A DNA stretch of 64,000 nt from Escherichia coli phage Shin27. Positions 3,241 to 38,528 of this stretch are shown here, piece by piece (the stretch's first letter is position 1; every line of letters begins with the position of its first letter). Both the position numbers and the translations under genes were made by a program. The stretch lies in the sequence record LC788709.1, one strand, 5' to 3'. The notes beneath the pieces are model-generated. The model made no database searches and was not told the DNA's origin. It saw only the letters and a list, made by a program, of their open reading frames with translations.

Positions 3241-3662
3241 TATTGAGTTACTCCATCGCTGATGTATACTTTACCTTCCATAATACGGAAAGAATTGACT
3301 TCAGAGCCAATTACATCACGAGTCATTAGGATATCATAATAACCAGCAAAACGTTGTCTTGGGTTATACTTATCACGTTCTTTAGATGCTTTTTCACCAA
3401 TATTAGTAGTGTCTGCAATGGAAAGACTAATTGCAGCAGCACCTTGGGCAGCATCAATAATATGAGTTTTAAAATCAGCTAGAACCTCGGCGTTCTCATC
3501 TAAACTAGATTTAATAGTTCCTCGGAGTGAATATCCGGTTAAGTTAACAGGAACTTCTGTTGGTGGATATACACTGTCATCAACATCCATAAACTGCATG
3601 ATAAGACCATAAGGTACTTTCTCATCAACAACAATATCAATAACTCGGTTTTCTGTACTCAT
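3240..3662 (-). CDS. tail collar protein (T5 p132-like)
   Basis: 140-aa ORF between fibre and central-fibre genes; size and position match the T5 collar protein as recalled. Confidence 0.45.
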
Positions 3663-3667
3663 TATAA

Positions 3668-9186: not shown

Positions 9187-9212
9187 AGTTAATTTCTCCT
9201 CTTAATAACAAT

Positions 9213-9241
9213 ATTATAATAGGATTGGAAAATTTTATCAA
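9213..9241 (-). promoter_or_regulatory. sigma70-type promoter (TTGATA-N17-TATAAT) upstream of distal tail protein gene
   Basis: read on minus strand; follows the terminator hairpin after tape measure gene. Confidence 0.45.
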
Positions 9242-9257
9242 GAAATTTTTATTTTTC

Positions 9258-9290
9258 CATAAAGAAAAGGAGGACATAAAGTCCTCCTCC
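9258..9290 (-). terminator. rho-independent terminator after tape measure gene
   Basis: GC-rich hairpin GGAGGAC-ATAAA-GTCCTCC followed by U-run on minus strand. Confidence 0.5.
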
Positions 9291-9294
9291 AGTA

Positions 9295-12200
9295 TTAAGA
9301 ATTACCAAGTGATTTCAGGGTGGTTCCATTCTCATTAAGAGCCTGTTCTACGGCATCCCTGAAAGCAGCACTGTTGCTCGAAGCAAAGTCTCGGAAGCTA
9401 GCCGCATCCATCGTACTGATGTTCAGCACAATAGGTCTACCCGATGTACCCTTTGAAGATCCTTTGAGTTCATCAGTAGGAGTAGCCTTCATCGGAACCA
9501 TAGGAGTGATTACTTCGGTACCATGTTCACCCATCTGGTAACTAACTCCAGGATACATATTACCACCTTCTGCACGGGGTACGAAAGAGTTAGCATTACC
9601 AATCCCTTGATCTCCTCGAATATAAGAAAGCTCACCTGCGTTAGCCGACATAGAAACGTCTACGTTCTTCTGGCGCTCTCCAAGAGTTAAGTAACCAGCT
9701 GTCTCAGCACCAGAGTCCCCAATAGAAGACATACCAGATGCAGAGGATGCTTGAGCAAGAGCCATAGCACCTGCTAAACCAGCCGCAACCATCAGAGGAA
9801 TAGAGAATGGATACGGAACAGCTGTTGCTGCCTGCATCACCGCTACTGCCGTCTGGATAATGATTTGCTTCTTAGCCGCATCTTGCTGGATCTTGAGCTT
9901 TTCAGCCTCTAACTTCTTGATCTTAGCTTTAGATTGCTCAGATTTACCATCACGTTTCTGTTCTGCTGCAATAGCTGCATCAATAGCACTTACCTGTTGA
10001 CCAACACTATACTGAATCATTGAAGATACAGTTTGCATACCAGCCGCTACTAGAGAAGTGGTATCCAGAGATCCTTGTGAAAACTGGATCATAGCATTAG
10101 TTAGGTTACCCATGCTTTGTGCTACAGCAGTTGCTTCGGAGTTCAGTTCAGACAGCTTAGAAATAGCCTGGTCATAGGATGCCATTCTATTCTGCATATC
10201 CATATTTGCTTTATCATCTCCTTCCAGTCCAGTTGTTGGAGTGTAAACACCACCAACAGAAGAAGTGACTTGCTGCTGCATCTGAGCATCACGTTGCATC
10301 TTAAGCTGTGCTAGAGCTGCCGAAGTTTCTTGGATTTTACGCTTATACTCTTCCTGAGCTTGTGCATTTCCTTTTGTAATTTCCAGTAAACTTTGGTACA
10401 GAGCTTGCTGTTCGGTTAGTCTCTGAGATTCCCCCGTAACGTTTCTGCTAGTCTGTGAAATATTAAGAGCTCTTTCACGTCCAGAAGCCATTTCCCTTTG
10501 CTGATCCTGACGGAATTTCCAGATTTCACGTTCAATTTGTGCCTGAGCTCGTCTTGATTGTTCAGCTTCCTTCTGCTTATCAATCTGCTTGGAGTACCAC
10601 ACATACTTCTCTTTCTCGATAGTCAGTTCAAGGTTCAACTGAGCTAAACGATATTGAGTATCTGTCATAGTACGGTTATTCAGGAGAGCAATTTCACGAT
10701 CAACACCAAGAATCTTATCGGTATAGTCCTTAACCTTCTTCTGAGCTTCCATACCCTGGTTAGTGATCTTGATACGTTCTAGCTGAATCTTAGCTATCTC
10801 ACCTTCGATTGCTTTGTTACCCTTGTTAGTTTCTAGGACACGCTTAAGAGCTGCTTCCTGTTCTTCTAACTGTTGGATTTCCAGACGTCTACCAGCTTCC
10901 TGTGCTTTCTCTTTGTCCTTAGTCTGGCTATACACTTCGGCAATCTTCTGCTGAACTTCTAGCTGATTCTTAGTCTCATTACCAGTTAATTTTACATAAC
11001 CAGCAAGAGCTTGTGAAGCAGTCTTCATCTCACTAAGAGTATTATACCCTAAGTTCAGGCTCTTAACATACTCATCAGCATTTTTACCAGTACCCGCGGA
11101 TAGAGACTCAATAGTCTTAATCGTATCTGATAAGGATGCACTAGTTTTAGCCGCAGTATTAGTATTCTGAGCGATGTTCTGGATATCGTTAGCTAAATCA
11201 CTAGCAGTTTTCTTAGCCTGATCATATGCTTTCTGCTGTTCTGTCAGTCCTTTCAGAGTTGCAGAGTTGAAGTCATAAACCGCATCAGGGTCATTTGCAT
11301 CTTTCTGTAGGTTAATTTGCTTCTGGAATTCTGGATTAGCCTTAGCAGCTGCAGCACCAGCAGCTTGGTATGCCGATTTCCATGCATTAAGATTGCCAGT
11401 TGAATCCTCTACTTCCTTATCAAGACGCTCTACCTGGAGAGCTAATGCAGCAGTATCTGCAATAAATTTCTGGTTTTCTTCAGAAGATCCTATGCGAACT
11501 CCTCCTACTTCAAAACCTCCTGCAGCTAACCCTACCGGTGCACCTTGAGCAACTAAACGAATAGCCCCTGCTGTAGATGCATCTGCTTGCTGCATACGCT
11601 TATCTAGATCAGCTTTTAACTTATTACGCTTTTCTAGAGATTCTTTGTACATATCAAGAGCTTTATTATATCCTTCCTCAGAAGCGGAAAGACTTAAAGC
11701 TACAGCACCAACGTTAGTTGGGTCAATCTGACGGTTAGTTTCTTCCTGTGCTCTAGCAGCAGAGGCCGAGATAGATGCTTGAGAAGTATAGAACACTGCG
11801 TTGATAGAATCAATTACTGGCCCTAAATACTTAGCAGCAGCCTGTTGAACCTTTCTCAGTGCAGCATCAGCATTAGCAGCAAACTGTTCCCAGGGGGTTG
11901 CACGAAGTACATCATCAAGATAGCCGAAACGTTTAGTAGATTCAGCGATAACTGCGTTAGCATATGCTTGTTGCTTCTGGAAAGTAGAGAGACTATTAAC
12001 GTTATATGTAATACCTGTGTTAGCAGCATTTAACTGTTTAACGTAGTCTGCGTAAGCATCGTTAAGACGAATAGTAACACCAAGTTCGTCCAGAAGTTCG
12101 ATTTCTTGTTTAGATACACCCTTGATTACACGGTTAAGTGCATCAGTCATATCAACACCAAGAACAGCAGCAGCACGACGAGCTACTAGACCAAATTTAT

Positions 12201-27300: not shown

Positions 27301-27463
27301 GTTAGCGCTAATTACCAATTCTCGAAATCTCATAAGATTACACATGAAGGTGTGCCCAGAGGTTACCTAGATGAGAATGAGTCTCATTACCGCCCCGGTA
27401 CTTAGCAAGCTAATAGTCACACTATGTGATGATAACATAGTGTGACTATTTTATTTTTAATTG

Positions 27464-28198
27464 TTAGGCGACTTTTAATTTATCAATGAATTGTTGCGGG
27501 CTGCAACTATATTCTGCGCGTTCTTCCTCGGTCATACCTTCCCAACACATTTTTAAACGGTCGGCTAGGAATTGATAATCATTATCATCATCTAATGATT
27601 CATCAATAAAGGTTTCACCGATCAATGTTACGCCGATTGATAGGATATCATTAACGGCTTGAGCGTCCAGCGTTTTAAATCCAGCACTTGCCGCCGCCGA
27701 TAATACGCCTTTATGATCATCAATCATCGTAAAATCAGCGTTCGGATATAACTGTTTAAACAGTTCAAAGTAATAGCTTTTGTATACAGCGTCTTTACTA
27801 TGATATATTTCGCTAACCTTATCCGCTTCAAAGTATTTGTGTAATGTATCGCGAGAGAATACGCGGATATTGCTATTTCCGCGCCCTCGCAAGCCTTGTT
27901 TACGCAAATAAAAGTAATCGCTTTTAGACATAAGGCGCGCGGTACAAATAATATTTAAAGTATTTGCATCATTCATACATTGGCGCATATATTCAACCAA
28001 TGGCAATAAAGAATCCTGCATAATTAAATCATGTTTACAGGCTTCGCGTGAATACTTATTTAAATTTAAATTCCCGTTATCATCAAAGCAAGGCGCTACA
28101 CGGTGGAAAGAATTAATGATAGTTCCGTCTAAGTCCCAAATCATAACGCGGGAAATATGCGGGAAAGCGCGGGCAATATTCAAGGTTACTTGATTCAT
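27464..28198 (-). CDS. dmp: HAD-family 5'-deoxyribonucleotidase (T5 Dmp-like)
   Basis: 244-aa ORF with HAD motif I (IWDLDGTI); size and position next to A1-like gene. Confidence 0.65.
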   Translation of the reverse strand: MNQVTLNIARAFPHISRVMIWDLDGTIINSFHRVAPCFDDNGNLNLNKYSREACKHDLIMQDSLLPLVEYMRQCMNDANTLNIICTARLMSKSDYFYLRKQGLRGRGNSNIRVFSRDTLHKYFEADKVSEIYHSKDAVYKSYYFELFKQLYPNADFTMIDDHKGVLSAAASAGFKTLDAQAVNDILSIGVTLIGETFIDESLDDDNDYQFLADRLKMCWEGMTEEERAEYSCSPQQFIDKLKVA

Positions 28199-28285
28199 TT
28201 GTTACATTCTCCATTTAAGGGATTTAGGTTAATTCAATCTTGCCAGCTAATTATATTGGATTAGCTGGCAATGTTCAATTAACTA

Positions 28286-28678
28286 TTAATTAGTGAGGCC
28301 ATACGCTAGCGCGTCACCAATAAAGCTAATATCTTCACCATGTACGCTAGAACGAATCCCCGCGCAAGTGTAAACCATCGCGCTAGCTTCTGGATTGCAG
28401 ACCGGACACGGCTTAACAACTGCAAACGCTAGACCGGATTTAAGCGCATCAATAATAATTGTTTGCACTGTCAAAGTATCAGCGTAAACGCCTTTTGCTT
28501 TCGTATGGCTTGCCACTTTGCCGGTATCATAAGCAAAGGTAGTAACCTGCAAAGCGTCGTTATAATTCAGCAAATCAAAATTAACTTGCCCCGCCTCGAC
28601 GTGATAACGTTCACCATTAGAATAAACTAGAACGATGGAAGAAGTAGCACGATCAAAAGGAATGTTTTGGTTTTTCAT
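28286..28678 (-). CDS. hypothetical pre-early protein
   Basis: 130-aa ORF between dmp-like and A1-like genes. Confidence 0.4.
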   Translation of the reverse strand: MKNQNIPFDRATSSIVLVYSNGERYHVEAGQVNFDLLNYNDALQVTTFAYDTGKVASHTKAKGVYADTLTVQTIIIDALKSGLAFAVVKPCPVCNPEASAMVYTCAGIRSSVHGEDISFIGDALAYGLTN

Positions 28679-28710
28679 GTTTATGACTCCAGATTATTTA
28701 ATTACGGGAT

Positions 28711-28989
28711 TTATTGAAAAAATACATTTAAAGATAAATCAGTTTTACGAAAATATGTTTCGTCGCCGTCTTTCCTTTCTTGATTAAGGTAATCGCCTGT
28801 CATTACCTGAATATGATCTTTTTCGAAAAAGATCATATTTTCGCCAATATTACTATCCCATACGGCATACATTCCCGCGTACATTCCACGGGTAACTAAA
28901 TAAACGCAACTATCAAAAGACATTTCAGACCATGCAATATCTTCTAAACAATTGCTATCAGGGATAGATATATTAATTTTACTAGCCAT
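28711..28989 (-). CDS. hypothetical pre-early protein
   Basis: 92-aa ORF. Confidence 0.4.
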   Translation of the reverse strand: MASKINISIPDSNCLEDIAWSEMSFDSCVYLVTRGMYAGMYAVWDSNIGENMIFFEKDHIQVMTGDYLNQERKDGDETYFRKTDLSLNVFFQ

Positions 28990-29041
28990 TTAATAAACCT
29001 TTTATTAATGGCGGTATATTTCAACCGCCGATTAAATTTAA

Positions 29042-30706
29042 TTATGCAAAGAATTTACCGTTTTTGAAATCAATCAAAGTACGTTGCCCGTTTGCATAGG
29101 TAATTAAATGCGTTTGCGTCCAGCTTGACGCGCCCACGTTGTAGCCCATATCAAGGGAACCAGCAACGCCAGCGGTATAAACGCCGCCGTAAATGCTAGC
29201 CGTGTGAGTGTGACCAGTGTTAAGGCGTCCCAACTTTTTAAACTGCTTAGGATTGCCCCGACTGCCGTTAATGCCATTGTGACCATGTACGCCGCATTCA
29301 ATGCCAGCGATTTTAAAGGACTGGTCAGTAGTCAAAAAAATGGCGTTAAATTCGCATCCTGCAACGTTTCTAAGCGCATAATCTAACACGTTAAAGGTAT
29401 CATCCTTTTCAGCAATAGCGGCGTAAATCGCAGCGTTTAGACGGTGATACAGTTCCGCGTTTGCGGGATCATCTTTAATGTTTGCGTTACGATCATCTAA
29501 CCAGCGGGATAATGCTAAATCATGGTTAGATTCCACAATGATTGTTTGACTAAAATCACGTTCCATAGATTCTAATACGCGTCCAGTATCGATAAGATCA
29601 TCAATAACTTTATCACGTCCGGCGGCGTATTGTTTCGCAAGGAATACACCACTAGCGCGGTTATGATGGTTACGCGATGTAAAATCATGCACGTCATGAA
29701 TAAATTGATATTTCGGTTTAAGAATATCAAGCAAGCTGTTTTCACTAGCCCATGAAGCGACGGCGCAATCATCATCTAATTTTTCGGCGTGAATATCGCC
29801 ATATTGCAAGCCTAGAACATGATCGGACGTTTCAAAACATCCGGTAGGCATAGCGCAAACATTCAAATCATAGAACATTCCGCTTTCATCCATTGTTTCA
29901 ATCTGGCGAGCATAAAATTCGCCGTCGTCGTCGAACTCTACCAGCAAAGCGCCATAATTATGTAAAGCCTCAGCTTTTTGACCTGCTTTCTGCTGAATGT
30001 AGTTTTTAAGCGTAGCCGTTCCGGTTGAATACATACGGCACACTACTTCACCTTTTAACGCTGGCACACTTTCAGCGGTAATTTTAGCGTGACCAATTGC
30101 CAGACCTTCAATATTTAAAGCCGTGGCGGTTTCTGCGAATCCTGAAAGCGGGTAATCTGCCGTTGGTAAAACGTTAATTTCAGCCATGAAAGCAAAGCGG
30201 CGGTTATTTAAAAATACGTTTTTATCACAAACATATTTATCAAATGCGGGATCGTATTTAATACCGTTTGCCCCTTCCCCGTTCTGAAATCCGTTTTTGT
30301 TGTAAATGAATTTGCTAACAAGTAATTCAGCGCCGCAATATTCAGCGAATTTTTCCAGACTTGCTAAAAAGTTTTTATGCGGGAAAGTATTATTTTGAAT
30401 CGACGTTAGAATAAAACGGCGACCGGACTTAACTTCCCATTGCTCAACGGTGCTAGAAACAATTCCCGCCGCCTCTGGGCGATCATCGTTTTTAATCGCC
30501 TTTTCGGCTTTTGCCGCTTTCGGTTTCGCTGGTTTATTTGCTTCCAGCCAGTCACAAATTGCGGTCGAATGTTTCGGCGTACCATAAACAGCTTTTGAAA
30601 TATCGTCGCAAACTTCCAATTTAGTAGCGCGTAAACGCTTACCGTAGAAGTTAAAATCTGCGGCCATTTTCAAAATTTGAGCTTGTTTTTCTGCGGAAAT
30701 ATTCAT
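29042..30706 (-). CDS. A1: metallophosphoesterase, T5 A1-like (host DNA degradation / second-step transfer)
   Basis: 554-aa ORF with calcineurin-like motifs (GDIHAE, NHD, GHTHT); size matches T5 A1 as recalled. Confidence 0.65.
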   Translation of the reverse strand: MNISAEKQAQILKMAADFNFYGKRLRATKLEVCDDISKAVYGTPKHSTAICDWLEANKPAKPKAAKAEKAIKNDDRPEAAGIVSSTVEQWEVKSGRRFILTSIQNNTFPHKNFLASLEKFAEYCGAELLVSKFIYNKNGFQNGEGANGIKYDPAFDKYVCDKNVFLNNRRFAFMAEINVLPTADYPLSGFAETATALNIEGLAIGHAKITAESVPALKGEVVCRMYSTGTATLKNYIQQKAGQKAEALHNYGALLVEFDDDGEFYARQIETMDESGMFYDLNVCAMPTGCFETSDHVLGLQYGDIHAEKLDDDCAVASWASENSLLDILKPKYQFIHDVHDFTSRNHHNRASGVFLAKQYAAGRDKVIDDLIDTGRVLESMERDFSQTIIVESNHDLALSRWLDDRNANIKDDPANAELYHRLNAAIYAAIAEKDDTFNVLDYALRNVAGCEFNAIFLTTDQSFKIAGIECGVHGHNGINGSRGNPKQFKKLGRLNTGHTHTASIYGGVYTAGVAGSLDMGYNVGASSWTQTHLITYANGQRTLIDFKNGKFFA

Positions 30707-30814
30707 AACTAAATCAACTCCTATAAAGGGATAAATATTAATACTGGCAATATTGCCAAATATAACGCCTTGCCTGAAGTGAGGACAATTTAAAAGGCGT
30801 TATAATTTGCAATA

Positions 30815-31060
30815 TTATTCTAGAATTGGCATAAGACTAGAACTAAAACCGCAACTAATAGCCAGCGTTAAAAATATAATCGCTAGATATTTTTGTTTAT
30901 TAGCTTGACGTTTAAACATATCAGCGGCATAAGCTGAATTAATGCCGATAATAGAGATTATATATTTGCCGTAATTAAATATAAATATAGCGGCAACTAT
31001 AAATAAACCTAAAATAAACGCTTCACTAGGGAAGAAAATCATTTTAATAACTCCGGTCAA
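30815..31060 (-). CDS. small membrane protein
   Basis: 81-aa ORF with two predicted TM helices. Confidence 0.4.
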   Translation of the reverse strand: MTGVIKMIFFPSEAFILGLFIVAAIFIFNYGKYIISIIGINSAYAADMFKRQANKQKYLAIIFLTLAISCGFSSSLMPILE

Positions 31061-31100
31061 AGGGAAATTATAGCGGGGAATATTCCCCGCTAATTAGAAT

Positions 31101-31517
31101 TTATTCACCTGCGGCCTGTTTTACTTCCTCCGCTACGCCTAACAATTGCGCTACGGCGTCCAGCGTTTCCAGTTTAGCACTTTCAAGGCTTGCCAGATCG
31201 TCGGCATCTTTTACGATACCTGAATCAATGGCGTGTTTAGCGATGACGCGCACATAGTGAGCTTTACGAATTGAGCTACCGCCGCCAACTTTGCGAGGTT
31301 TATCGCTTTTCTGATAGGCTTTTGCGCTTGTCAGTTTAGAACGTACAGACACCGGACTAGCAGCACCAACGGCGGCGGCAATTTCTTTCAGGCCGTCACT
31401 GTTAGCAAATTCACTTCCGCTTTTAGCGACCATTTCAGAATACATAGAAACAGCTTTTTCGGTGTTTTCTTCGTTCCAAGAGAATTTTGCGGTTTTTTCG
31501 GTTTTAACGTTAGACAT
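31101..31517 (-). CDS. hypothetical pre-early protein (possible A2 equivalent by size and position)
   Basis: 138-aa ORF immediately upstream of A1-like gene. Confidence 0.35.
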   Translation of the reverse strand: MSNVKTEKTAKFSWNEENTEKAVSMYSEMVAKSGSEFANSDGLKEIAAAVGAASPVSVRSKLTSAKAYQKSDKPRKVGGGSSIRKAHYVRVIAKHAIDSGIVKDADDLASLESAKLETLDAVAQLLGVAEEVKQAAGE

Positions 31518-31805
31518 AATTTAATACTCCATTCAATTATTAATTAAGGGATTATGATTAACTAAATGTTAATCGCTATATATTCTATTAGCTAGAATAT
31601 ATATAACGGAAACATTTTATTTTTATTTCCAGTTTCAAGCGGTTTATTAATTCCCGAATATATTTATATTCTCACCTTACCCGGCTTGCCAGAGAATTAA
31701 TAAGGCAACATTGTATTTATACGCTGTTTATTATTCCGTTCACGCTAGGAATATTTCGAGTTATCTTTATTGCCTAACTAAGCATGATATGTAAGGCGCA
31801 TTAAT

Positions 31806-32057
31806 TTATGCGATAGCTTGCCATTTATCATCTTTCTGAATGATTTTTACAACGTCGCCAGATTTAACACGGACGTTATAAATAGGCTTGCCGTGGTTAC
31901 TGCGTTCCGTTTCCGCATAGACCGCTTCAATCTTATCAAAGGGATCAAGCGCCGCACCTTTAATACGTTCAGCTTTTCCAGTTAATTCATCCGTTTTAGT
32001 AACGAAAGGAATAAAAACGGATTGACCTACTTTCGGTGCGGTGATAACGTTTTGCAT
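31806..32057 (-). CDS. hypothetical protein
   Basis: 83-aa ORF with GGAG RBS. Confidence 0.4.
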   Translation of the reverse strand: MQNVITAPKVGQSVFIPFVTKTDELTGKAERIKGAALDPFDKIEAVYAETERSNHGKPIYNVRVKSGDVVKIIQKDDKWQAIA

Positions 32058-32223
32058 TTTTAATACTCCGGTTTATTGGGGGATTATTCCACAATAGCGC
32101 CTCGATACTTTGAAACGCTATTAGATTATAATCCGCTAGGAGTTAGCCTAAACATTACCGTTTTTCCAAATTGTTAAAGAGCAGTTACTACGGGGAACAT
32201 CTTAAAACCTATCGGCTAGCGTG

Positions 32224-32433
32224 TCAATCGTTTTTTAAACTTTTTTCGATTTGATGGGAGTTATATAAATCAATCATTATATTACGCCACACCATTTCCA
32301 GCCCTTGTTGCTTGCCTTTCTTGTATTGCTTGAATCTGTATTTTACAGATCGTTGCGCTACTGTCAACAAATTTTTTGTTCTGCTATCAAGCGACTTGAT
32401 AGGCTTGCCAGTGATCAAAAGCGTTTGTTTCAT
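32224..32433 (-). CDS. hypothetical basic protein
   Basis: 69-aa ORF with AAGGA RBS, Lys/Arg-rich. Confidence 0.35.
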   Translation of the reverse strand: MKQTLLITGKPIKSLDSRTKNLLTVAQRSVKYRFKQYKKGKQQGLEMVWRNIMIDLYNSHQIEKSLKND

Positions 32434-32840
32434 ATCGTCGATTCCTTATAATATCTAAGTTTACCGCCGATAGGCTTTAAGATGTTCCCTAATTTTTAAA
32501 GAGCATGGCAGGGTTTTGAAAGGTCAAACAGACTGTCAATCGCTGTTATCCCCGCCGTGTAGTTCGTCATTGCCGCCCTACGTGATAAATAATAGGAGAA
32601 TACCGAGAAGGGCGCAAGCGTATTTTTGTAAAGAAACGTAAAGAAAACCACTACTCGCAAACGTCCAGCGGCGCATTAAATTTAATGAAACGGGCGCGCG
32701 AATAACACCAAAACAACCATTTTAGCAAGTAATTTTTTTCATTTATATTTGCTTTGCCATACTTGACAAAATCTAAAATCCTCGTGGTGAGGTTTTCTCG
32801 GTGTATCCCTTATGATTGCCTATCCTTTCCTTTGAGGCGC

Positions 32841-32867
32841 TTAGAATGCGTTACAGAGCGTTTTAGA
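32841..32867. repeat. 27-bp exact direct repeat, copy 1
   Basis: TTAGAATGCGTTACAGAGCGTTTTAGA identical to 37085-37111. Confidence 0.8.
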
Positions 32868-33185
32868 CCCTGTTAATAACTTATACAAAAAGCAAAAATG
32901 AAATTTAATGAGTTATCCACTTGATTTTTCAAAAAAGTATTTTCTGCTGTTATTTTTCATTGACAAATAAGTTTAGACGTGCATTTATTGGTTAGCAGAC
33001 TAATAATCGCTAGGAGGATAATCACGCTGGTGGATTGTAACAGCCGAAACAGTTAGCGGACTATTAATACTTTAAAAACCTATTAGCCAACTAACTATTT
33101 CATAATATATAATATACACATAAATTAATGAGAAATAATAACTATGAGAAACTATCGGGCTAAGTGAGAACCACTATCATTTAGG

Positions 33186-33255
33186 TTATGCACAAAGCTA
33201 TCCACAGCACAAAATAACTTGACGCAATAGGCGACGTTTTGGCGACTTATCCACA
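33186..33255 (+). promoter_or_regulatory. DnaA-box cluster
   Basis: TTATGCACA 33186-33194, cTATCCACA 33198-33206, TTATCCACA 33247-33255. Confidence 0.5.
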
Positions 33256-33295
33256 GACTTATATACAGGTTATCCTACTGTATAAATATACAGGG
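33241..33295. repeat. inverted-repeat arm L (DnaA box + LexA-like box)
   Basis: TTATCCACA at 33247-33255 and TACTGTATAAATATACAG at 33276-33293; reverse-complement partner at 37141-37205. Confidence 0.65.
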
Positions 33296-33543
33296 TAGAA
33301 TGGTAGCAGTAACAACCGCAATCAAATTTAAGCGGCCTAGAACGCGCTACACGGCGTTTTCTCACTGCTACCCTTATTATAATAAAGCCTTGTGTACGCT
33401 TACAGAGAGCTAGAAATAGAAAACGCGCGATTATCATAAAAACGGGCAGTAGGCAAGGAATAAAAAACCTTTTCTTTTTTTCTTGCCCCTAGCGAACAAT
33501 TATCTATATCATTCACTCACCGATTAACGAGGGAGACAAAGAA

Positions 33544-34545
33544 ATGTCTACTGTAAGAATTGCAGTACCAGCAAACGCAACTATTATTAAAGGTAGTTTG
33601 CGCAACCTGCTAGATGGTAGTAGTGCGGCAAGTATTCAGCACACCGCCGCAATGGTTGAAAAAATTCACGAGGATATTTTAGATAATAATGATACTCATT
33701 ATTCAGTCGATGATTTCACGCTATTACTAGACCAGACAAGGGCGCTAGTAATTTTCAACCGTGATTATCACATTTTCCGTAATAGTCAGGGAACTGATAT
33801 TGATTTTATCATTGTTGGTTATAGTGAGTCTCATAGTGGTTACATTGCGCGATTATATAACGTGCAAGAAAAAGAGCAGGTAACAGCAACAAAAGTAAAT
33901 AATATCAGATTGGATAGTGTCGGATCGTTATTAAATAGTATCTGGCGTGAATTATCATCCAGTTATAAAGGTGCTGATAGTGACGCAATCGAAACAACTG
34001 GCGTATTGTGCTTTGAACGCGCTAGCGGTAACATGTTGATCCCTAACGATTATTTAGAGTATGGGAATGAATCAAACGTTGCAAACGCTGGATTTACACT
34101 TTTACCGCTTGACAATGTAGCAAAACAGGCTGTAAACTCTCAAACTTCAAGCGCAAATGCGCAAACTACTGAAAATAAAGGAAATATTATGTCTAAAGTA
34201 TCTTCTATCGTTGCCGCTAATAAATCCGCCGTTGTTAACGCTGCTAAACTGGAAGCGGGTAAAATTGCACTGACTCAAATCACAAAAGTAGCGGCGAAAA
34301 AAGCGCCGTTTATGATTAAAGGTTATATCGATACGCCGATCGGTCGCGTAGTGATCGCTAACCTGTTAAGCGTAGCGGTTGACCAGTACGCCCCGACTAA
34401 TGCGAAAGCGAAAGCGGTAGCAGGCGCGGCAATGGAAGCGGCAATGCTGGAAATGGTACAGAGTTTCAATATTGCGGAAATGATCGATGAAATGGTAAAA
34501 GGTATTGACATTTCTACTTTTACCACTAACACCGAAAGTGAGTAG
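33544..34545 (+). CDS. hypothetical protein, first gene of plus-strand pre-early cassette
   Basis: 333-aa ORF with GAGGGAG RBS; Ala/Lys-rich C-terminal half; no recognisable motif. Confidence 0.55.
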   Translation: MSTVRIAVPANATIIKGSLRNLLDGSSAASIQHTAAMVEKIHEDILDNNDTHYSVDDFTLLLDQTRALVIFNRDYHIFRNSQGTDIDFIIVGYSESHSGYIARLYNVQEKEQVTATKVNNIRLDSVGSLLNSIWRELSSSYKGADSDAIETTGVLCFERASGNMLIPNDYLEYGNESNVANAGFTLLPLDNVAKQAVNSQTSSANAQTTENKGNIMSKVSSIVAANKSAVVNAAKLEAGKIALTQITKVAAKKAPFMIKGYIDTPIGRVVIANLLSVAVDQYAPTNAKAKAVAGAAMEAAMLEMVQSFNIAEMIDEMVKGIDISTFTTNTESE

Positions 34546-34612
34546 TAATAACTAGCGGGGATTATTTCCCCGCGTTACTATTTCCCTGTTAATTGTTAGG
34601 AGACTACTTATT

Positions 34613-34921
34613 ATGCAACTGAATCAAATCATGTTGACGCAATTAGCCGAAAAAATGCCGAATAGCCCCCATGTTAATTATTCGGACGATCAAAGCAATA
34701 TTCCTATATGGGAAAAACAAGGCCGTCCCTTTTTATGGGAACATGTAGAAAGCGCGAATAATTATCATGCTTTCTTTGATCGTGGTTATGGCTGGCTATG
34801 TATTTTTGTAGACGAAACTTTGCTGGATTATGGAATGGATGAAATAGTCCGTGATGACGTAATTTTCTTAAATAAAGGATTTTACAGTGTAGCAAATTCT
34901 CTTTATTTCCCTGCTAATTAA
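34613..34921 (+). CDS. hypothetical protein
   Basis: 102-aa ORF with AGGAG RBS. Confidence 0.5.
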   Translation: MQLNQIMLTQLAEKMPNSPHVNYSDDQSNIPIWEKQGRPFLWEHVESANNYHAFFDRGYGWLCIFVDETLLDYGMDEIVRDDVIFLNKGFYSVANSLYFPAN

Positions 34922-34934
34922 TAGGAGGCTAGTT

Positions 34935-35429
34935 ATGTCAGAAGAAAAATATGGCTTTTCACTAGAAAGTGTGAATGAAGCTAAACACGATATGATAGTT
35001 TTAGTTGATTGTCATACTGGCTATTGCGGGGAAGGCTGGACGGAGGAACATTTTGTTCCCGCTGGCTGTGATCTGGACGCTTTCGCAAACGAACACGCAT
35101 ATGATAATGCTTCTCGTTTCGGTAGTGATGGGGAAGAAGATGAAGAAACAGGGGAATGGATTGAAAATGATAATGTTTATGCGAGTATTTATCATTATCA
35201 ATTGAGTAAATCCGGTATTTATGTAAATGGCGGCGATCCTATTAATACCGTTATGAAACTAATTATTAAACACGGTGGCGCGGAAATAATTGGTAACAAG
35301 GCGTTATTATATGCAAATCGATTAAAACAGCTTGTTTATATTCCTGATAATTCCCGTTGGGATGAATATGCCGTTTTACAGAAAGAACTAAAACGCTGTT
35401 TCGGTGTGGAAGCATTAGAAATAGTCTAA
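34935..35429 (+). CDS. hypothetical acidic protein (DNA-mimic / anti-restriction candidate)
   Basis: 164-aa ORF with TAGGAGG RBS; strongly acidic segment DGEEDEETGEWIENDN. Confidence 0.5.
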   Translation: MSEEKYGFSLESVNEAKHDMIVLVDCHTGYCGEGWTEEHFVPAGCDLDAFANEHAYDNASRFGSDGEEDEETGEWIENDNVYASIYHYQLSKSGIYVNGGDPINTVMKLIIKHGGAEIIGNKALLYANRLKQLVYIPDNSRWDEYAVLQKELKRCFGVEALEIV

Positions 35430-35536
35430 TGTAAAGTTTTGTAAAGGTCGCCTATTATGGCGACCTTTTTTGTTATAATGCCTTTACACCGAAACGGTGG
35501 GTTGAAAATTTTCCCTGATTTCTAGGAGGCGTTAAA

Positions 35537-35764
35537 ATGGTACATTCATCATCTTCTGCAATTTTTAACGGTATGGAATGGGTATCCGTTCCCGCTATTG
35601 TCAGCGTTATGGTTTCTGAGTTCGGCATAGGTAAAACTTATGTTACCATTCAGGGGCTTTACGACAATGACAAGATTGACCAGCAAACCGCCGGATTTTT
35701 GCTGGATGAATTGAAAGCTAACCATTGCACTAAAAAGCAAGCGGCAAAAATTGTTTTAATGTAA
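35537..35764 (+). CDS. hypothetical protein
   Basis: 75-aa ORF with TAGGAGG RBS. Confidence 0.45.
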   Translation: MVHSSSSAIFNGMEWVSVPAIVSVMVSEFGIGKTYVTIQGLYDNDKIDQQTAGFLLDELKANHCTKKQAAKIVLM

Positions 35765-35810
35765 TTAATAAAGGGGGTATATTATCCCCTAATTTCTAGG
35801 AGCTAATAAA

Positions 35811-35960
35811 ATGGTTATTTTTCGATCTATTCTAGCTAGTATCTTGGGCGCTATTTTATCACTGTTTGTAATAGCTTTCGGCGTTAACGTGGTTATTATT
35901 GGAGCAGGTATCGCTGGGTTTTCTTACTTGTTAGGCTGTATGACTGGTAAAGGGGAATAA
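35811..35960 (+). CDS. small membrane peptide
   Basis: 49-aa hydrophobic ORF with TAGGAG RBS; below ORF-track size cutoff. Confidence 0.35.
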   Translation: MVIFRSILASILGAILSLFVIAFGVNVVIIGAGIAGFSYLLGCMTGKGE

Positions 35961-35962
35961 AA

Positions 35963-36175
35963 ATGTTAAAGAATGTTTCCCTTGCCCGTTCTAAAGGTTT
36001 TAAGCTGGTGGATGTTAACACGTTCGAGCGTCCAGATTGTAAAATCGAATATGTAGCACGCAACAAAAACGCTTTCCGTGTTACTGAAAAGAAATTTGAC
36101 AAGCGCGGAAATTTGGTAGCCGAAACGGTTAAACACTTTGCTACTTTTTACGCTGCGTTTCGTGGGGTATTATGA
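35963..36175 (+). CDS. hypothetical protein
   Basis: 70-aa ORF tightly packed after preceding ORF. Confidence 0.45.
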   Translation: MLKNVSLARSKGFKLVDVNTFERPDCKIEYVARNKNAFRVTEKKFDKRGNLVAETVKHFATFYAAFRGVL

Positions 36176-36273
36176 GATCCTTATATATTGCTCTAGCGTT
36201 TGCTACCGTTGGCGTTGTTTGCTCATTCGCTGCATTTGTTCTAAAAATGTACCTGATATTTTCCCAGCTTTAG
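36172..36273 (+). CDS. small membrane peptide
   Basis: 33-aa hydrophobic ORF overlapping previous stop (ATGA). Confidence 0.25.
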   Translation: MRSLYIALAFATVGVVCSFAAFVLKMYLIFSQL

Positions 36274-36284
36274 GAGCTTGACAA

Positions 36285-36632
36285 ATGGTTATTTATGAGG
36301 GTAATCGCTTTGTTACTAATTGCCGTCCGGCATTATTAGCAAACTATTTAAATCAGCTTTCCCCTGTTTATAAAGGCGTGGTTAACATCTATGAAGGCAA
36401 AGCGCACTATAGAATTAATGCCGTTGTCGCTCGCGAGCTTGCCTTTCAGTTTCTTACTTTTAACTCATGCGATATTCAGGTTATGGGTGAGTCTTTGATT
36501 GCAGAAAATGAAGATGAATTTATTAACATTTTCCGCAAAGTATGTACAGAGCGCCTGATTATGAAAGGCGCATATATTCAATCAACCGCTGATAGTATTG
36601 AAACAGCGTTTCGAAAAATTGTAAATGAATAG
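36285..36632 (+). CDS. hypothetical protein
   Basis: 115-aa ORF with TAGGAG RBS. Confidence 0.5.
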   Translation: MVIYEGNRFVTNCRPALLANYLNQLSPVYKGVVNIYEGKAHYRINAVVARELAFQFLTFNSCDIQVMGESLIAENEDEFINIFRKVCTERLIMKGAYIQSTADSIETAFRKIVNE

Positions 36633-36755
36633 CTGGTGGCGTAAAACGCAATCCCATAAATCTAATAATACCGCTGGGAAACATTCCCAGCGTTTACGAT
36701 TTGGGAACGGCTTCACAATGTTAATAATAATCATTCTCATTCTAGGAGCAATGGC

Positions 36756-36995
36756 ATGGCTGTAAGAATTTTACGATATGTAGAACGTAAAGAAACCGAT
36801 ATTATGCAGCATCATTTAACTGATGGGCAATACGCGCAATTTTTAGAAATGCAGAAAAGCGGAGCTAGTACGGCGGCGCTAGGGGCGTGGATCAATTCAG
36901 TTTCAACGTGTACGCATTTTGATTCATACGGGTATACGCCAGCCGAAACCGTCCAGATCTTTGACGACTACGAGAAGGAATACATAGCAGACTAA
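36756..36995 (+). CDS. hypothetical protein, last gene of cassette
   Basis: 79-aa ORF with TAGGAG RBS. Confidence 0.45.
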   Translation: MAVRILRYVERKETDIMQHHLTDGQYAQFLEMQKSGASTAALGAWINSVSTCTHFDSYGYTPAETVQIFDDYEKEYIAD

Positions 36996-37084
36996 TAATA
37001 GCGGGGCGCAACTATCGGCCCCGCCTTTTCTGCCTGCAAACAAATTTCCCCTTATTAAAATACCTCCTCCAAAAATAAACGCGT

Positions 37085-37111
37085 TAGAATGCGTTACAGA
37101 GCGTTTTAGAG
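37085..37111. repeat. 27-bp exact direct repeat, copy 2
   Basis: identical to 32841-32867. Confidence 0.8.
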
Positions 37112-37140
37112 CTATATTAGAGTTATTCACTACGTAGGAA

Positions 37141-37205
37141 TACTGTATATTTATACAGTAGAATAACCTGTGGATAAGTCAGTGGATAACGCCTCAAAAT
37201 CGCTA
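37141..37205. repeat. inverted-repeat arm R (LexA-like box + DnaA boxes)
   Basis: TACTGTATATTTATACAGTA at 37141-37160, TGTGGATAA at 37169-37177. Confidence 0.65.
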
Positions 37206-37251
37206 GGATTTTGTCAAGTCAAATCGTGCTGTTAATAAACCTGTGGATAAC
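37169..37251 (-). promoter_or_regulatory. DnaA-box cluster
   Basis: reverse complement of TTATCCACA at 37169-37177 and 37243-37251, near-match at 37181-37189. Confidence 0.5.
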
Positions 37252-37269
37252 TTAAATAGCAGTGTTTCT

Positions 37270-37420
37270 CACTTCGCTTTCTAAATGCGAATCATTCTCA
37301 TTATGCGACTCATTCGTATTCAATTCTGTAAATGATAATCATTCCCATTCCACTTTCTAAATGCGAGTAGTTCTCATTCGCATTCAACTTCTCAAATGCG
37401 AATCAATCTCATTATCAGTT
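37270..37420. repeat. three copies of ~25-bp motif (CTTTCTAAATGCGAATCATTCTCATT family)
   Basis: copies near 37277, 37344, 37385. Confidence 0.6.
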
Positions 37421-37463
37421 GCATTTCGGCAGGCAGGGCATTTTCTATTTGCCCTGCGCTTTT

Positions 37464-38065
37464 GTGCAAATCCGACATCTGCCCCCACGGATTACGTGCC
37501 AGCGTGCATGTGCGAATCCGACAATTTTTGGTAGTGTGCAAATCCGATGGGAAATATTTTTTATATGTGCGAATCCGACAATGAATTTTCCTAAAAACTC
37601 CAGCAATCCGCAACTGCGATGCAATCCAGCTGGATTTACTAGAGTATGCGCAAATCCGACATGAGTTTATTTGTGCAAAACCGACAAGATTTTTGTGACT
37701 TCGATGAGAGGGTGTGTGATTGTGAGGGTTTGGGGAGAAGTGCGAATCCGATGAGATTTTGGGAGGAACTACGGAAGGAGCAGCGGTGATGGTGCTTTAG
37801 CACCGGTTTGCTGCATTTTTGAGGATAATGCGGGATGTTTTGGCTAGAATTGAGATTAGGGGAGATAAAGCGAAATTTTATTAGCAAAATGGGGCAAAAT
37901 CGCTTGACAAGTGAAAATTCCTGTGGCTCTAAAAAACTCAGGCAAATATGGGCCTTCGGCCCGAAATAATGCTGCTATTTTCAGTGTTCCTAAAAACTTT
38001 GGAGACTCCTATCAATGTGCAAATCCGACCATAAATTTCTAGAAACACAGTGTGCAAATCCGATA
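37464..38065. repeat. dispersed array of ~10 copies of 14-bp motif GTGCRAATCCGAYR
   Basis: copies at 37464, 37510, 37538, 37567, 37648, 37673, 37740, 38017, 38052, degenerate at ~37603; irregular spacing. Confidence 0.75.
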
Positions 38066-38230
38066 GCAATTTCCAGAAATGTGTTTTGGAAAAATGTCTC
38101 CTAGAAATAACCGCCCTCCCTATAACCGCCCTGTATTAAACCGCCTATTGCTGGAGTTTCTAGGAACATGAAAACCGCCTGAGTTGGCGAGAGTTTTCCT
38201 AGAAACTTAGGAGTCTACTAGAAAGTGTTG
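38030..38230. repeat. cluster of TTCTAGAA-type palindromes and AACCGCC repeats
   Basis: TTTCTAGAAAC, TCCTAGAAA, TTTCTAGGAAC, TTCCTAGAAAC plus four AACCGCC copies at 38100-38170. Confidence 0.6.
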
Positions 38231-38528
38231 TGCTATCCTAGCAGATGAGCGGCAACAGGTGTATCATCTTGAACATTAATTTATCTATTCAACAGTATTA
38301 GTTTTTATATAAGTATAAGATCCCCAGGGGATTGTGAGAGATGCTCCACCCCTGGGATACGAATTGCGTGAGATGGTACAAAACTTCTGAAGATTTCCCT
38401 AGCCCTCCGACAAGCTACGGGGGAAATAGAAGTTTCCCATCCACCATCCGTATCCGGGTGGATCTCTTTATTCTATGTTATTTCATAGAGTTATTATAAC
38501 ATGCAGAAATCATAACGTCAAGTAGAGT

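What the first reader, a model, noticed from the sequence alone, without database searches (positions are those of the whole stretch)
37141..37251. Mirror copy of the LexA-box/DnaA-box module at the other end of the cassette
TACTGTATATTTATACAGTA (37141-37160) differs from the textbook LexA operator at about one position and is followed by reverse-oriented DnaA boxes at 37169-37177 and 37243-37251. Together with 33241-33295 it forms an inverted pair bracketing the cassette, a geometry typical of looping or repression elements and of recombination boundaries.
Basis: seen in the sequence. Interest (0 to 1): 0.6.

Follow-up and report, generated by a model that had tools for sequence, protein, structure and literature searches.

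The report
Phage T5 injection-stop repeat, LexA box
This is the already-described conserved inverted repeat beside the DNA 'injection stop' region of T5-like phages. Its DnaA boxes are published, but its palindrome is also a near-perfect site for the host SOS repressor LexA, kept across the whole phage family, which gives a testable lead on how these phages pause genome delivery.

Summary
TACTGTATATTTATACAGTA (37141-37160) is one mismatch from the LexA consensus. It is followed by two pairs of reverse DnaA boxes and is one arm of a 135-nt inverted repeat (33159-33293 / 37143-37277). The window is a T5-like phage (Demerecviridae). The module is T5's 'palindrome D' plus IRD'-spacer-IRC', and its partner is IRC-spacer-IRD. 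The inverted pair, its eight DnaA boxes and the variable genes between the copies are already published (Heusterspreute 1987 and Wang 2005 as cited in Davison 2020). They are proposed to be part of the injection stop signal. I found no mention of LexA in the searchable literature. The CTGTAT/ATACAG half-sites are the most conserved columns of the module, while the centre varies. The motif persists next to DnaA boxes in Klebsiella, Pantoea, Pectobacterium, Proteus, Aeromonas and Vibrio relatives whose A1 proteins are only 32-74% identical. It overlaps no promoter. Both modules are present in 30 of 30 relatives, and homology breakpoints pile up at their inner edges. In Sugarlandvirus the whole cassette is inverted between them. 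The most likely role is a landing pad for pre-existing host LexA and DnaA on first-step-transfer DNA. That role, and LexA binding itself, are inferred and have not been tested.

The parts
37141..37160 (.). LexA-operator-like palindrome TACTGTATATTTATACAGTA, equivalent to T5 'palindrome D' (AY587007 9330-9349)
   Evidence: Sequence read. One mismatch to the consensus, with 0.01 such sites expected. PWM score 25.9 bits, above all recalled E. coli operators. T5 annotation.
37169..37189 (-). DnaA box pair 1: TTATCCACA (37169-37177) and TTATCCACT (37181-37189), 3 bp apart, 8 bp from the LexA-like 20-mer
   Evidence: The geometry is the same in T5, Spivey, AAS21, Stubb and Vibrio phage Cody.
37230..37250 (-). 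DnaA box pair 2: TTATTAACA (37230-37238, variant) and TTATCCACA (37242-37250), 3 bp apart
   Evidence: (D15). Matches Davison's description of paired boxes.
37143..37277 (.). Right arm of the 135-nt inverted repeat, equivalent to T5 IRD'-spacer-IRC' (T5 9332-9462)
   Evidence: I1. Mapped to T5. Present in 30 of 30 related loci and in 541 phage records.
33159..33293 (.). Left arm of the inverted repeat, equivalent to T5 IRC-spacer-IRD (T5 6022-6152). It carries the LexA-like box 33276-33295 (TACTGTATAAATATACAGGG) and DnaA boxes 33186-33194, 33198-33206, 33247-33255 and 33259-33267.
37084..37110 (+). 27-nt 'IRB-like' element TTAGAATGCGTTACAGAGCGTTTTAGA on the cassette side of the LexA-like box. 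An identical copy lies at 32841-32867 and a degenerate mirrored copy at 33337-33363.
   Evidence: D5. The ...ACAGAGCGTTTTAGAG core is conserved next to the LexA-like box even in Vibrio phages Cody and River4.
37001..37030 (+). Intrinsic terminator-like hairpin (GCGGGGC...GCCCCGC followed by CTTTT) that ends the cassette operon
   Evidence: Read directly from the sequence; the tool's scan did not list it. It aligns with the stretch of T5 (9208 onward) that carries palindrome C, annotated there as a putative terminator. The order terminator, IRB-like element, LexA box, DnaA boxes is kept in Spivey.
33483..33512 (+). Promoter-like site TTGCCC-18-TATCAT upstream of the first cassette gene. It corresponds to T5 pre-early promoter T5P4, upstream of gene 011.
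   Evidence: The promoter upstream of gene 011 is described as experimentally characterised in the paper read.
33544..36995 (+). Accessory pre-early gene cassette of 8 ORFs. The first is a 333-aa DUF7566 protein. The cassette is mosaic among relatives.
37253..37421 (+). Iterons corresponding to T5 DRC/DRE repeats (consensus about TTTCTAAATGCGAATCATTCTCATT). Several resemble Fur boxes.
   Evidence: (D2, D3, D6). T5 annotation.
37433..37459 (+). Palindrome GCAGGGCA...TGCCCTGC followed by CCCTGCGC, the equivalent of T5 palindrome J and the major 7.9% nick site
   Evidence: Assigned by homology only.
37462..38069 (+). Array of TGTGCAAATCCGACA-type repeats (T5 DRD). The terminal-repeat end maps by homology to T5 at about 37880-37950.
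   Evidence: (D1, D4). The terminal-repeat end of this particular phage was not determined.

Best explanation
The region 37141-37277 is the injection-stop-side copy (palindrome D plus IRD'-spacer-IRC') of the conserved inverted-repeat pair in the terminal repeat of T5-like phages. Its partner, 33159-33295, is IRC-spacer-IRD. Each copy is a composite site for host proteins: a near-consensus LexA operator, then 8 bp away two pairs of DnaA boxes that point towards it.

I propose that it is not a promoter operator. Instead it acts as a landing pad for proteins already present in the uninfected cell, namely one LexA dimer and DnaA oligomers. These would load onto the first-step-transfer DNA as soon as it enters. 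The resulting nucleoprotein complexes would sit at both borders of the accessory pre-early operon. The right-hand complex would lie just inside the point where DNA transfer pauses. It would contribute to holding, organising or insulating the paused DNA until the phage proteins A1 and A2 restart transfer.

What is shown: the identity of the element, its family-wide conservation, and a constraint pattern of the LexA type.

What is inferred: that LexA and DnaA actually bind.

What is speculative: the link to the pause.

My rough probabilities are 0.95 for the identity, about 0.65 for LexA occupancy in vivo, and about 0.25-0.3 for a role in the pause itself.
For: Identity:
- The window is a T5-like phage.
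- The module aligns to T5 9208-10584 and, in reverse, to 6022-6152. GenBank AY587007 annotates palindrome D, IRD', IRC', IRC and IRD at those positions.
- Davison describes the same pairs of DnaA boxes 3 bp apart and proposes a role in the injection stop.

LexA-type constraint:
- The two boxes score 25.9 and 22.8 bits on a LexA matrix. Recalled E. coli operators score a median of 19.0 and a maximum of 24.8. The next best site in the window scores 14.5.
- Across 31 and 32 distinct T5-like copies, the half-sites CTGTAT and ATACAG have entropy of 0.00-0.19 bit. The spacers and outer flanks have 0.37-0.69 bit, and the 4-nt centre of the right-hand box has 0.44 bit.
- In 137 kb from eight divergent Demerecviridae there are 9 exact CTGTAT-N4-ATACAG sites against 0.01 in shuffles. 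Six of the nine lie within 50 bp of a DnaA box matching at 8 or 9 of 9 positions. The centres differ between lineages (ATGGAT, ATCC). The A1 proteins of six of these phages are only 32-74% identical to the window's.
- Mutated half-sites are never compensated in the partner half. The hairpin is also weak, at -4.9 kcal/mol. Selection therefore acts on sequence, not on structure.

Not a promoter: no promoter-like site overlaps either box.

Independence from cassette orientation: in Spivey the cassette is inverted, yet the order terminator, IRB-like element, LexA box, DnaA boxes still ends the operon.
Against: - No binding data exist for LexA or DnaA on this DNA. The BF23 paper states that experimental studies of these sites are lacking.
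- It is physically unclear how proteins bound on the cytoplasmic side could stop DNA that is still entering.
- The T5 mutant deleted from hegG to 017 is viable, with small plaques. If the deletion is contiguous it removes the left module. The endpoints were not available to me.
- Natural phages exist with a damaged core: ATAG in the right box of S114, and TTGT in four left boxes.
- T5 is generally held to grow on recA1 laboratory strains (my own knowledge, not checked here). If so, LexA cleavage cannot be required.
- All known hosts share the same LexA motif, so host-specific motif switching could not be tested.
- The set of E. coli operators used for the matrix was recalled from memory.
Confidence: 0.5

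Rival explanations
1. The palindrome is the site of a phage protein, and its likeness to a LexA box is incidental or is mimicry. Candidates are the A2 DNA-binding dimer or an A1/A2 cleavage complex, as in Davison's 'restriction site' model.
For: A2 is a DNA-binding dimer that is essential for second-step transfer. Davison proposes that A1/A2 cut at a palindrome in this region. A2 is conserved in all the Demerecviridae checked except Aeromonas phage AhSzw-1, where tblastn found no match although a gene there is annotated A2. The A2 model has a helix-turn-helix-like N-terminal domain.
Against: The site matches the host LexA core at 12 of 12 positions in phages whose A2 proteins are only 34-62% identical. 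A co-evolving protein-site pair would be expected to drift. The A2 model is all-helical, with no LexA-like winged helix and no significant PDB match. Davison places the proposed cut to the right of the block, not at palindrome D.
Confidence: 0.2
2. The modules are transcriptional insulators or roadblocks. Protein-bound sites back up the terminator, so RNA polymerase leaving the accessory operon in either orientation cannot run into the DNA still held in the entry channel or into the A2 operon.
For: The order terminator, IRB-like element, LexA box, DnaA boxes lies at the 3' end of the operon both in the window and in Spivey, where the operon is inverted. The LexA-like boxes are the innermost elements of both arms.
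Against: In the window the left copy lies upstream of the cassette promoter, where no transcription is expected. Single repressor roadblocks are leaky (established knowledge). There are no transcript data.
Confidence: 0.12
3. The pair matters mainly as a substrate for homologous recombination. It would drive inversion and shuffling of the accessory cassette, so selection is for evolvability and not for an infection function.
For: The cassette is inverted in Sugarlandvirus relative to T5, AAS21 and the window. Breakpoints cluster at the inner edges of the modules. The distance between the copies ranges from 1.7 to 4.1 kb.
Against: Recombination needs homology, not particular motifs. Yet only the LexA- and DnaA-type motifs survive in Vibrio and Aeromonas relatives, where the rest of the arm has diverged. 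Many breakpoints lie inside the cassette. No invertase domain was found in the cassette proteins.
Confidence: 0.1
4. It is a classical SOS-regulated promoter. LexA would repress a weak promoter (TTATCC-16-TATAAA, which overlaps the DnaA box and the LexA box), making a phage transcript inducible by DNA damage.
For: A match of 8 of 12 positions to the sigma-70 hexamers can be read across the DnaA box and the LexA box (my own reading). DnaA and LexA do co-regulate uvrB in E. coli (abstract of PMC6015884, listed).
Against: The site falls below the scan threshold and was not reported. The centre of the palindrome flips between AA and TT among relatives, which changes the would-be -10 element. The right copy would fire antisense into a terminator with no gene behind it. 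Only three pre-early promoters are described as experimentally characterised in T5, and none lies here.
Confidence: 0.05
5. It is a purely structural DNA element, a cruciform or hairpin, recognised by its shape.
For: It is a palindrome. As single-stranded DNA it folds better than shuffled sequence (z = -2.8).
Against: The stem is only 8 bp and AT-rich (-4.9 kcal/mol). The left copy is no better than shuffles (z = -1.4). There are no compensatory changes; the sequence itself is kept.
Confidence: 0.03

Closest known systems
T5 IRD'-spacer-IRC' / IRC-spacer-IRD inverted repeats (repeat regions 3 and 2 of the T5 left terminal repeat; Heusterspreute 1987 and Wang 2005 as cited by Davison, bioRxiv 10.1101/866236)
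   Same: It is homologous sequence at 77-87% identity, in the same position between the accessory pre-early operon and the DRC/DRD repeats. It has the same arm of about 131-135 nt, the same two pairs of DnaA boxes 3 bp apart, and the same partner upstream of the gene 011 homologue.
   Different: Nothing structural differs; this is another member of the same family. The published descriptions that I could read never call palindrome D a LexA operator (0 occurrences of 'LexA' or 'SOS'). They also did not include Aeromonas or Vibrio relatives.
SOS boxes (LexA operators) of Gammaproteobacteria, e.g. at recA, sulA and umuDC
   Same: It has the CTGTAT-N4-ATACAG palindrome with an AT-rich centre, scores as high as the best chromosomal operators, and shows conserved half-sites with a free centre.
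   Different: It does not overlap a promoter, and no gene is evidently controlled by it. It sits in a virulent phage, in non-coding DNA, fused to DnaA boxes. Binding is untested.
Non-origin DnaA-box clusters (datA, DARS1/2) and oriC
   Same: It has clusters of oriented 9-mers with fixed short spacing. Davison points out the resemblance to oriC.
   Different: There is no evidence of origin function or of a titration role. According to Davison, T5 replication origins map near the middle of the genome. Here the boxes are paired with a LexA-type site and duplicated in inverted orientation 1.7-4.1 kb apart.
Invertible DNA segments bounded by inverted repeats (Gin/Cin/Hin type)
   Same: Inverted repeats bracket a gene block that is found in both orientations among relatives.
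   Different: No invertase domain was found among the eight cassette proteins scanned. The inversion is seen only between distant genera, which fits rare homologous recombination.

Membership tests
T5-family IRD'-spacer-IRC' / IRC-spacer-IRD repeat pair (injection-stop region) | Sequence homology to the T5 elements at 9332-9462 and 6022-6152 | tested here: met
   blastn of T5 against the window: T5 9208-10584 aligns to 37019-38329 at 77%, 6022-6152 aligns to 37273-37143 at 77%, and 9332-9463 aligns to 33293-33162 at 75%. The right module is 87% identical to T5's.
T5-family IRD'-spacer-IRC' / IRC-spacer-IRD repeat pair (injection-stop region) | Two copies in inverted orientation. One lies between the divergent pre-early promoters and the gene 011 homologue. 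The other lies after the accessory operon and before the DRC/DRD repeats, inside the terminal repeat. | tested here: met
   (I1). The DRC- and DRD-type repeats follow at 37253-38069.
T5-family IRD'-spacer-IRC' / IRC-spacer-IRD repeat pair (injection-stop region) | Two pairs of DnaA or DnaA* boxes per copy, 3 bp apart within a pair, with a spacer of fixed length between the pairs | tested here: met
   Pairs at 37169-77/37181-89 and 37230-38/37242-50, and at 33186-94/33198-206 and 33247-55/33259-67. The spacer shows no indels in 29 of 31 right-module sequences.
T5-family IRD'-spacer-IRC' / IRC-spacer-IRD repeat pair (injection-stop region) | Acts as, or belongs to, the signal that halts DNA transfer at about 8% of the genome | not testable with these tools
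   This has never been shown experimentally even for T5. Two-step transfer has been verified only in T5 and BF23.
LexA operator (SOS box), Gammaproteobacteria type | CTGT-N8-ACAG palindrome close to the consensus TACTGTATATATATACAGTA | tested here: met
   1 and 3 mismatches to the consensus, with 0.01 such sites expected by chance. Scores of 25.9 and 22.8 bits (the matrix was built from operators recalled from memory).
LexA operator (SOS box), Gammaproteobacteria type | Evolutionary constraint on the half-sites but not on the centre | tested here: met
LexA operator (SOS box), Gammaproteobacteria type | Overlaps or closely follows a promoter and represses a gene | tested here: not met
   No promoter-like site lies at either box. 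The nearest is 33483-33512, about 190 bp from the left box. The consensus scan covers sigma-70 promoters only.
LexA operator (SOS box), Gammaproteobacteria type | Bound by LexA and released on RecA-stimulated cleavage | not testable with these tools
   This needs EMSA, footprinting or ChIP.
Replication origin or DnaA-titration locus (oriC, datA, DARS) | Cluster of consensus DnaA boxes | tested here: met
   4 of the window's 8 TTWTNCACA matches lie in the two arms.
Replication origin or DnaA-titration locus (oriC, datA, DARS) | Origin firing, or control of DnaA-ATP/ADP | not testable with these tools
   Davison reports that T5 origins map near the genome centre.
Site-specific invertible segment | A recombinase (invertase) encoded in or beside the segment | tested here: not met
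   Pfam found only DUF families, or nothing, for the eight cassette ORFs scanned (one 49-aa ORF was not scanned) and for the neighbouring ORFs.

The most novel reading that the evidence does not exclude
A virulent phage family uses the host SOS repressor itself, together with DnaA and perhaps Fur, as a structural part of the brake that pauses two-step genome delivery. Pre-existing LexA would bind the operator as the injection-stop module emerges into the cell. Its removal would help time the restart. Removal could come from A1/A2 action or from RecA-stimulated cleavage once A1 starts degrading host DNA. This would link the two unexplained phenotypes of A1: host DNA breakdown and second-step transfer.
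Probability: 0.1. Interest if true: 0.8.

Novelty: already known. Interest (0 to 1): 0.42.

Why it matters
How T5 stops after injecting 8% of its genome has been an open question since Lanni's work of 1968. The only recent model (Davison 2020) rests on the DnaA boxes of this same repeat and has not been tested. Here a second host-protein site, a top-scoring LexA operator, is shown to be fused at fixed spacing to the DnaA boxes, and it is conserved from enterobacterial to Vibrio and Aeromonas members of the family. That finding strengthens the idea that the element is read by host proteins. It also adds simple experiments: lexA(Def) and lexA(Ind-) hosts, LexA EMSA and ChIP, and operator point mutants. 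If LexA does not bind or does not matter, the element stays an ordinary, already catalogued T5 repeat.

Tried and rejected
1. Literature search for any link between LexA and T5. Six full-text searches and term look-ups in three T5 papers found nothing relevant. Davison's 2015 review, together with the Heusterspreute 1987 and Wang 2005 papers, is not held. An older mention therefore cannot be excluded.

2. Reaching distant relatives in IMG/VR. An A2 alignment was too divergent to search with. Single A1 queries from Vibrio, Proteus and Aeromonas phages returned only the same genomes. I used GenBank records instead.

3. Test for host-specific LexA motif switching. A1-like genes in Dinoroseobacter and Rhizobium phages sit in structural or replication modules with no T5-like pre-early region. 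The test does not apply.

4. A2 as a LexA-like binder. There was no Pfam hit in the local library and no significant PDB sequence hit (best E-value 0.89). An AlphaFold model (pLDDT 83.5) is all-helical, and its best Foldseek E-value is 1.0.

5. Known RNA families. There was nothing near the modules.

6. Origin in a host chromosome or plasmid. There was no match in 5,426 E. coli genomes or in 72,556 plasmids.

7. Using flank swapping to pin down the inversion endpoints in Spivey. This was inconclusive, because the IRB-like element lies on the inner side of both modules.

Full report
**What is in the sequence.** Positions 37141-37160 read TACTGTATATTTATACAGTA. This is one mismatch from the 20-nt LexA consensus. 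The window contains only two 20-mers within three mismatches of that consensus, this one and 33276-33295 (TACTGTATAAATATACAGGG). Shuffles give 0.01. They are also the only two CTGT-N8-ACAG matches in 64 kb.

Downstream lie TGTGGATAA at 37169-37177 and at 37242-37250. Each has a one-mismatch partner 3 bp away, at 37181-37189 and 37230-37238. Window-wide, DnaA consensus boxes are not enriched (8 against 8.1 expected). However, four of the eight lie in the two arms. The arms, 33159-33293 and 37143-37277, form a 135-nt inverted repeat at 75% complementarity (I1).

**What it is.** The 6-kb region around the module (32500-38500) matches 539 phage records, almost all of them Salmonella, Escherichia and Klebsiella T5-like phages. 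The A1 protein is 100% identical to that of E. coli phage Wa28. The module itself is 100% identical to that of Salmonella phage SB10.

Mapping onto T5 (AY587007) places 37141-37160 on the annotated 'palindrome D' (9330-9349). The right arm falls on 'inverted repeat D'' and 'inverted repeat C''. The left arm falls on 'inverted repeat C' and 'D' (6022-6152). To the right follow the T5-type DRC/DRE iterons, the equivalent of palindrome J with the 7.9% nick sequence, and the DRD repeats. By homology the end of the terminal repeat falls at about 37880-37950.

Davison's preprint (10.1101/866236) describes exactly this pair in 25 phages. It reports eight DnaA or DnaA* boxes in pairs 3 bp apart, known in part since 1987. 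It notes a highly variable coding region between the copies and proposes that the repeats are part of the injection stop signal. A 2023 paper notes that no experiment has tested these sites. The module, the mirror geometry, the DnaA boxes and the variable cassette are therefore already known.

**What seems not to be known.** Davison's text contains no mention of LexA or SOS. Nor do the BF23 paper or a 2026 T5 preprint. Six full-text searches found nothing that links LexA to T5-like phages. The 1987, 2005 and 2015 papers are not held, so this is absence of evidence only.

**Is the LexA-like box under selection as such?** I built a LexA matrix from E. coli operators recalled from memory. On it the two boxes score 25.9 and 22.8 bits. 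The operators themselves have a median of 19.0 and a maximum of 24.8, and the next best site in the window scores 14.5.

Across 31 distinct right copies and 32 distinct left copies from T5-like genomes, the half-sites are the most conserved columns of the whole module, at 0.00-0.19 bit of entropy. The 4-nt centre of the right-hand box (0.44 bit), the spacers and the outer flanks (0.37-0.69 bit) vary more.

The stronger test is divergent genera. I examined loci from Klebsiella (Spivey), Pantoea (AAS21), Pectobacterium (My1), Proteus (Stubb), Aeromonas (AhSzw-1) and Vibrio (70E37.1, Cody, River4) phages. The A1 proteins of six of them are 74% down to 32% identical to the window's. In 137 kb from these loci there are 9 exact CTGTAT-N4-ATACAG sites against 0.01 in shuffles. 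Further sites have one mismatch, all in the pre-early non-coding regions. Six of the nine lie beside a DnaA box matching at 8 or 9 of 9 positions.

The unit [DnaA box]-3-[DnaA box]-7/8-[20-mer] is retained from T5 to Vibrio phage Cody. Centres and outer bases differ between lineages (ATGGAT in Aeromonas, ATCC in Vibrio). This is the constraint expected of a LexA site.

Damaged half-sites do occur: ATAG in S114, TTGT in four left copies, and CCAG or CTGG variants. They are never compensated in the other half. The hairpin is also weak. The selection is therefore on sequence and not on structure.

**Who reads it?** Host LexA and DnaA have the same specificity in all these hosts (established knowledge). 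A 1-mismatch operator on naked incoming DNA should be bound by free LexA. That is an inference.

The main rival reader is the phage A2 protein, a DNA-binding dimer needed for second-step transfer. A2 proteins are 34-62% identical across these phages. An AlphaFold model (pLDDT 83.5) is all-helical with a helix-turn-helix-like N-terminal part. It shows no LexA-like winged helix and has no significant structural match. This does not exclude A2, but nothing ties it to CTGT-N8-ACAG.

**What it is not.** Neither box overlaps a promoter-like site. The cassette promoter (33483-33512, the T5P4 equivalent) is about 190 bp from the left box. The right box lies about 110 bp beyond the operon's terminator, with no gene behind it. 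No Rfam family matches near the modules. The module is absent from E. coli chromosomes and from plasmids.

**Cassette boundaries and recombination.** Both modules are present in all 30 independent T5-like loci. Between them, presence drops to 10-40% for several blocks. Homology breakpoints peak at 33300-33349 (17 loci), just inside the left box, and at 37000-37049 (24 loci), at the terminator. Equally strong peaks occur at internal gene boundaries. The region is therefore a mosaic and not a single exchangeable cassette.

In Spivey (Sugarlandvirus) the homologues of the first cassette gene (DUF7566) and of the seventh lie on the same strand as A1. In the window, T5 and AAS21 they lie on the opposite strand. 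A strong terminator, the IRB-like element, the LexA-like box and the reversed DnaA boxes still follow the operon's end in Spivey. The whole unit has thus been inverted between the repeats at least once. No invertase is encoded in the cassette, which fits rare homologous recombination.

**Mechanism.** I commit to this reading: the module is a landing pad for pre-existing host proteins (a LexA dimer plus DnaA oligomers) on first-step-transfer DNA. It is present at both borders of the accessory operon. The right copy lies about 290-330 bp inside the mapped shear and nick position of T5. It contributes to the paused state or to its organisation or insulation.

Several points weigh against a strict brake role:
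- Tethering on the cytoplasmic side does not obviously stop entry.
- A T5 deletion from hegG to 017 is viable with small plaques. It probably removes the left copy, but the endpoints are unverified.
- Natural core mutants exist.
- T5 is held to grow on recA1 strains (my own knowledge), so LexA cleavage cannot be essential.

Hence an overall confidence of 0.5, with the breakdown given in the explanation section.

**Verdict.** As an object, however, it is already described in the T5 literature. The added value is the family-wide LexA-operator identity of 'palindrome D', which appears to be unreported and is easy to test.

Noticed in passing
window 27373-37398, notably 37287, 37328 (GTAAATGATAATCATTCCC) and 37398; T5 L002 9574-9621; L043 4843; L044 4023-4185; L045 3377; L046 3258: 19-mers resembling Fur boxes (at least 14 of 19 matches to GATAATGATAATCATTATC) cluster in the terminal repeat. 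20 of the window's 25 hits lie there, against a mean of 4 per 64 kb in shuffles. The DRC/DRE iterons just outside the LexA/DnaA module are of this type in enterobacterial, Proteus and Aeromonas relatives, but not in the Vibrio phages. A third host-protein site class may sit in the injection-stop region.
   Followed up: partly
window 32841-32867, 37084-37110 and 33337-33363; L048 about 3600-3631; L055 about 4220-4250: A 27-nt element, TTAGAATGCGTTACAGAGCGTTTTAGA, occurs twice identically and once in degenerate form. It always lies on the cassette side of a LexA-like box or at T5 'IRB'. Its core ACAGAGCGTTTTAGAG is retained directly upstream of the LexA-like box in Vibrio phages Cody and River4, although their A1 proteins are only about 31% identical. 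What binds it is unknown.
   Followed up: partly
L047 about 9968-9986, L048 about 3661-3679, L055 about 4280-4298: In Vibrio T5-like phages the A2-proximal LexA-like box is followed within about 10 bp by TGGCAC/TGGCAT-N5-TTGCT. This matches the sigma-54 -24/-12 consensus and faces the A2-A1 operon. No such motif was seen in the window.
   Followed up: no
window 37150-37151 and 33285-33286; loci L002-L042: The central dinucleotide of the LexA-like palindrome is AA or TT in different T5-like phages, and never AT or TA in this sample. The change recurs in several lineages. It looks like repeated small inversions of the palindrome centre, not stepwise point mutation.
   Followed up: partly
L043 (Klebsiella phage Spivey) 5023-8492: The accessory pre-early cassette is inverted relative to T5 and the window. 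Homologues of the DUF7566 gene and of the seventh cassette gene (36% and 32% amino-acid identity) lie on the A1 strand. Davison describes this region in Type 3 phages as replaced and read in the opposite direction. At least part of it is an inversion.
   Followed up: yes
window 33544-34545: The first cassette gene (333 aa, DUF7566, the T5 gene 011 homologue) is mosaic within itself. Its C-terminal third (from about 34100) is shared by most relatives, while its N-terminal two-thirds are shared by only 13% of loci. The 2026 T5 preprint reports gene 011 as toxic and unclonable.
   Followed up: no
GenBank records MK947458 (H81), PQ569711 (H101) and MK770119 (L044 3311-5244): In several deposited genomes the non-coding repeat region, including this module, is annotated with short 'hypothetical protein' CDSs. 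AAS21 carries a run of ORFs of 25-75 codons across it. These are probably annotation artefacts.
   Followed up: no
window 29042-30706 compared with 32500-38500: A1 is 100% identical at the protein level to E. coli phage Wa28, but the adjacent 6 kb is only 94% identical in DNA to Wa28. The 221-nt module is 100% identical to that of Salmonella phage SB10. This points to recent mosaicism within the terminal repeat.
   Followed up: no
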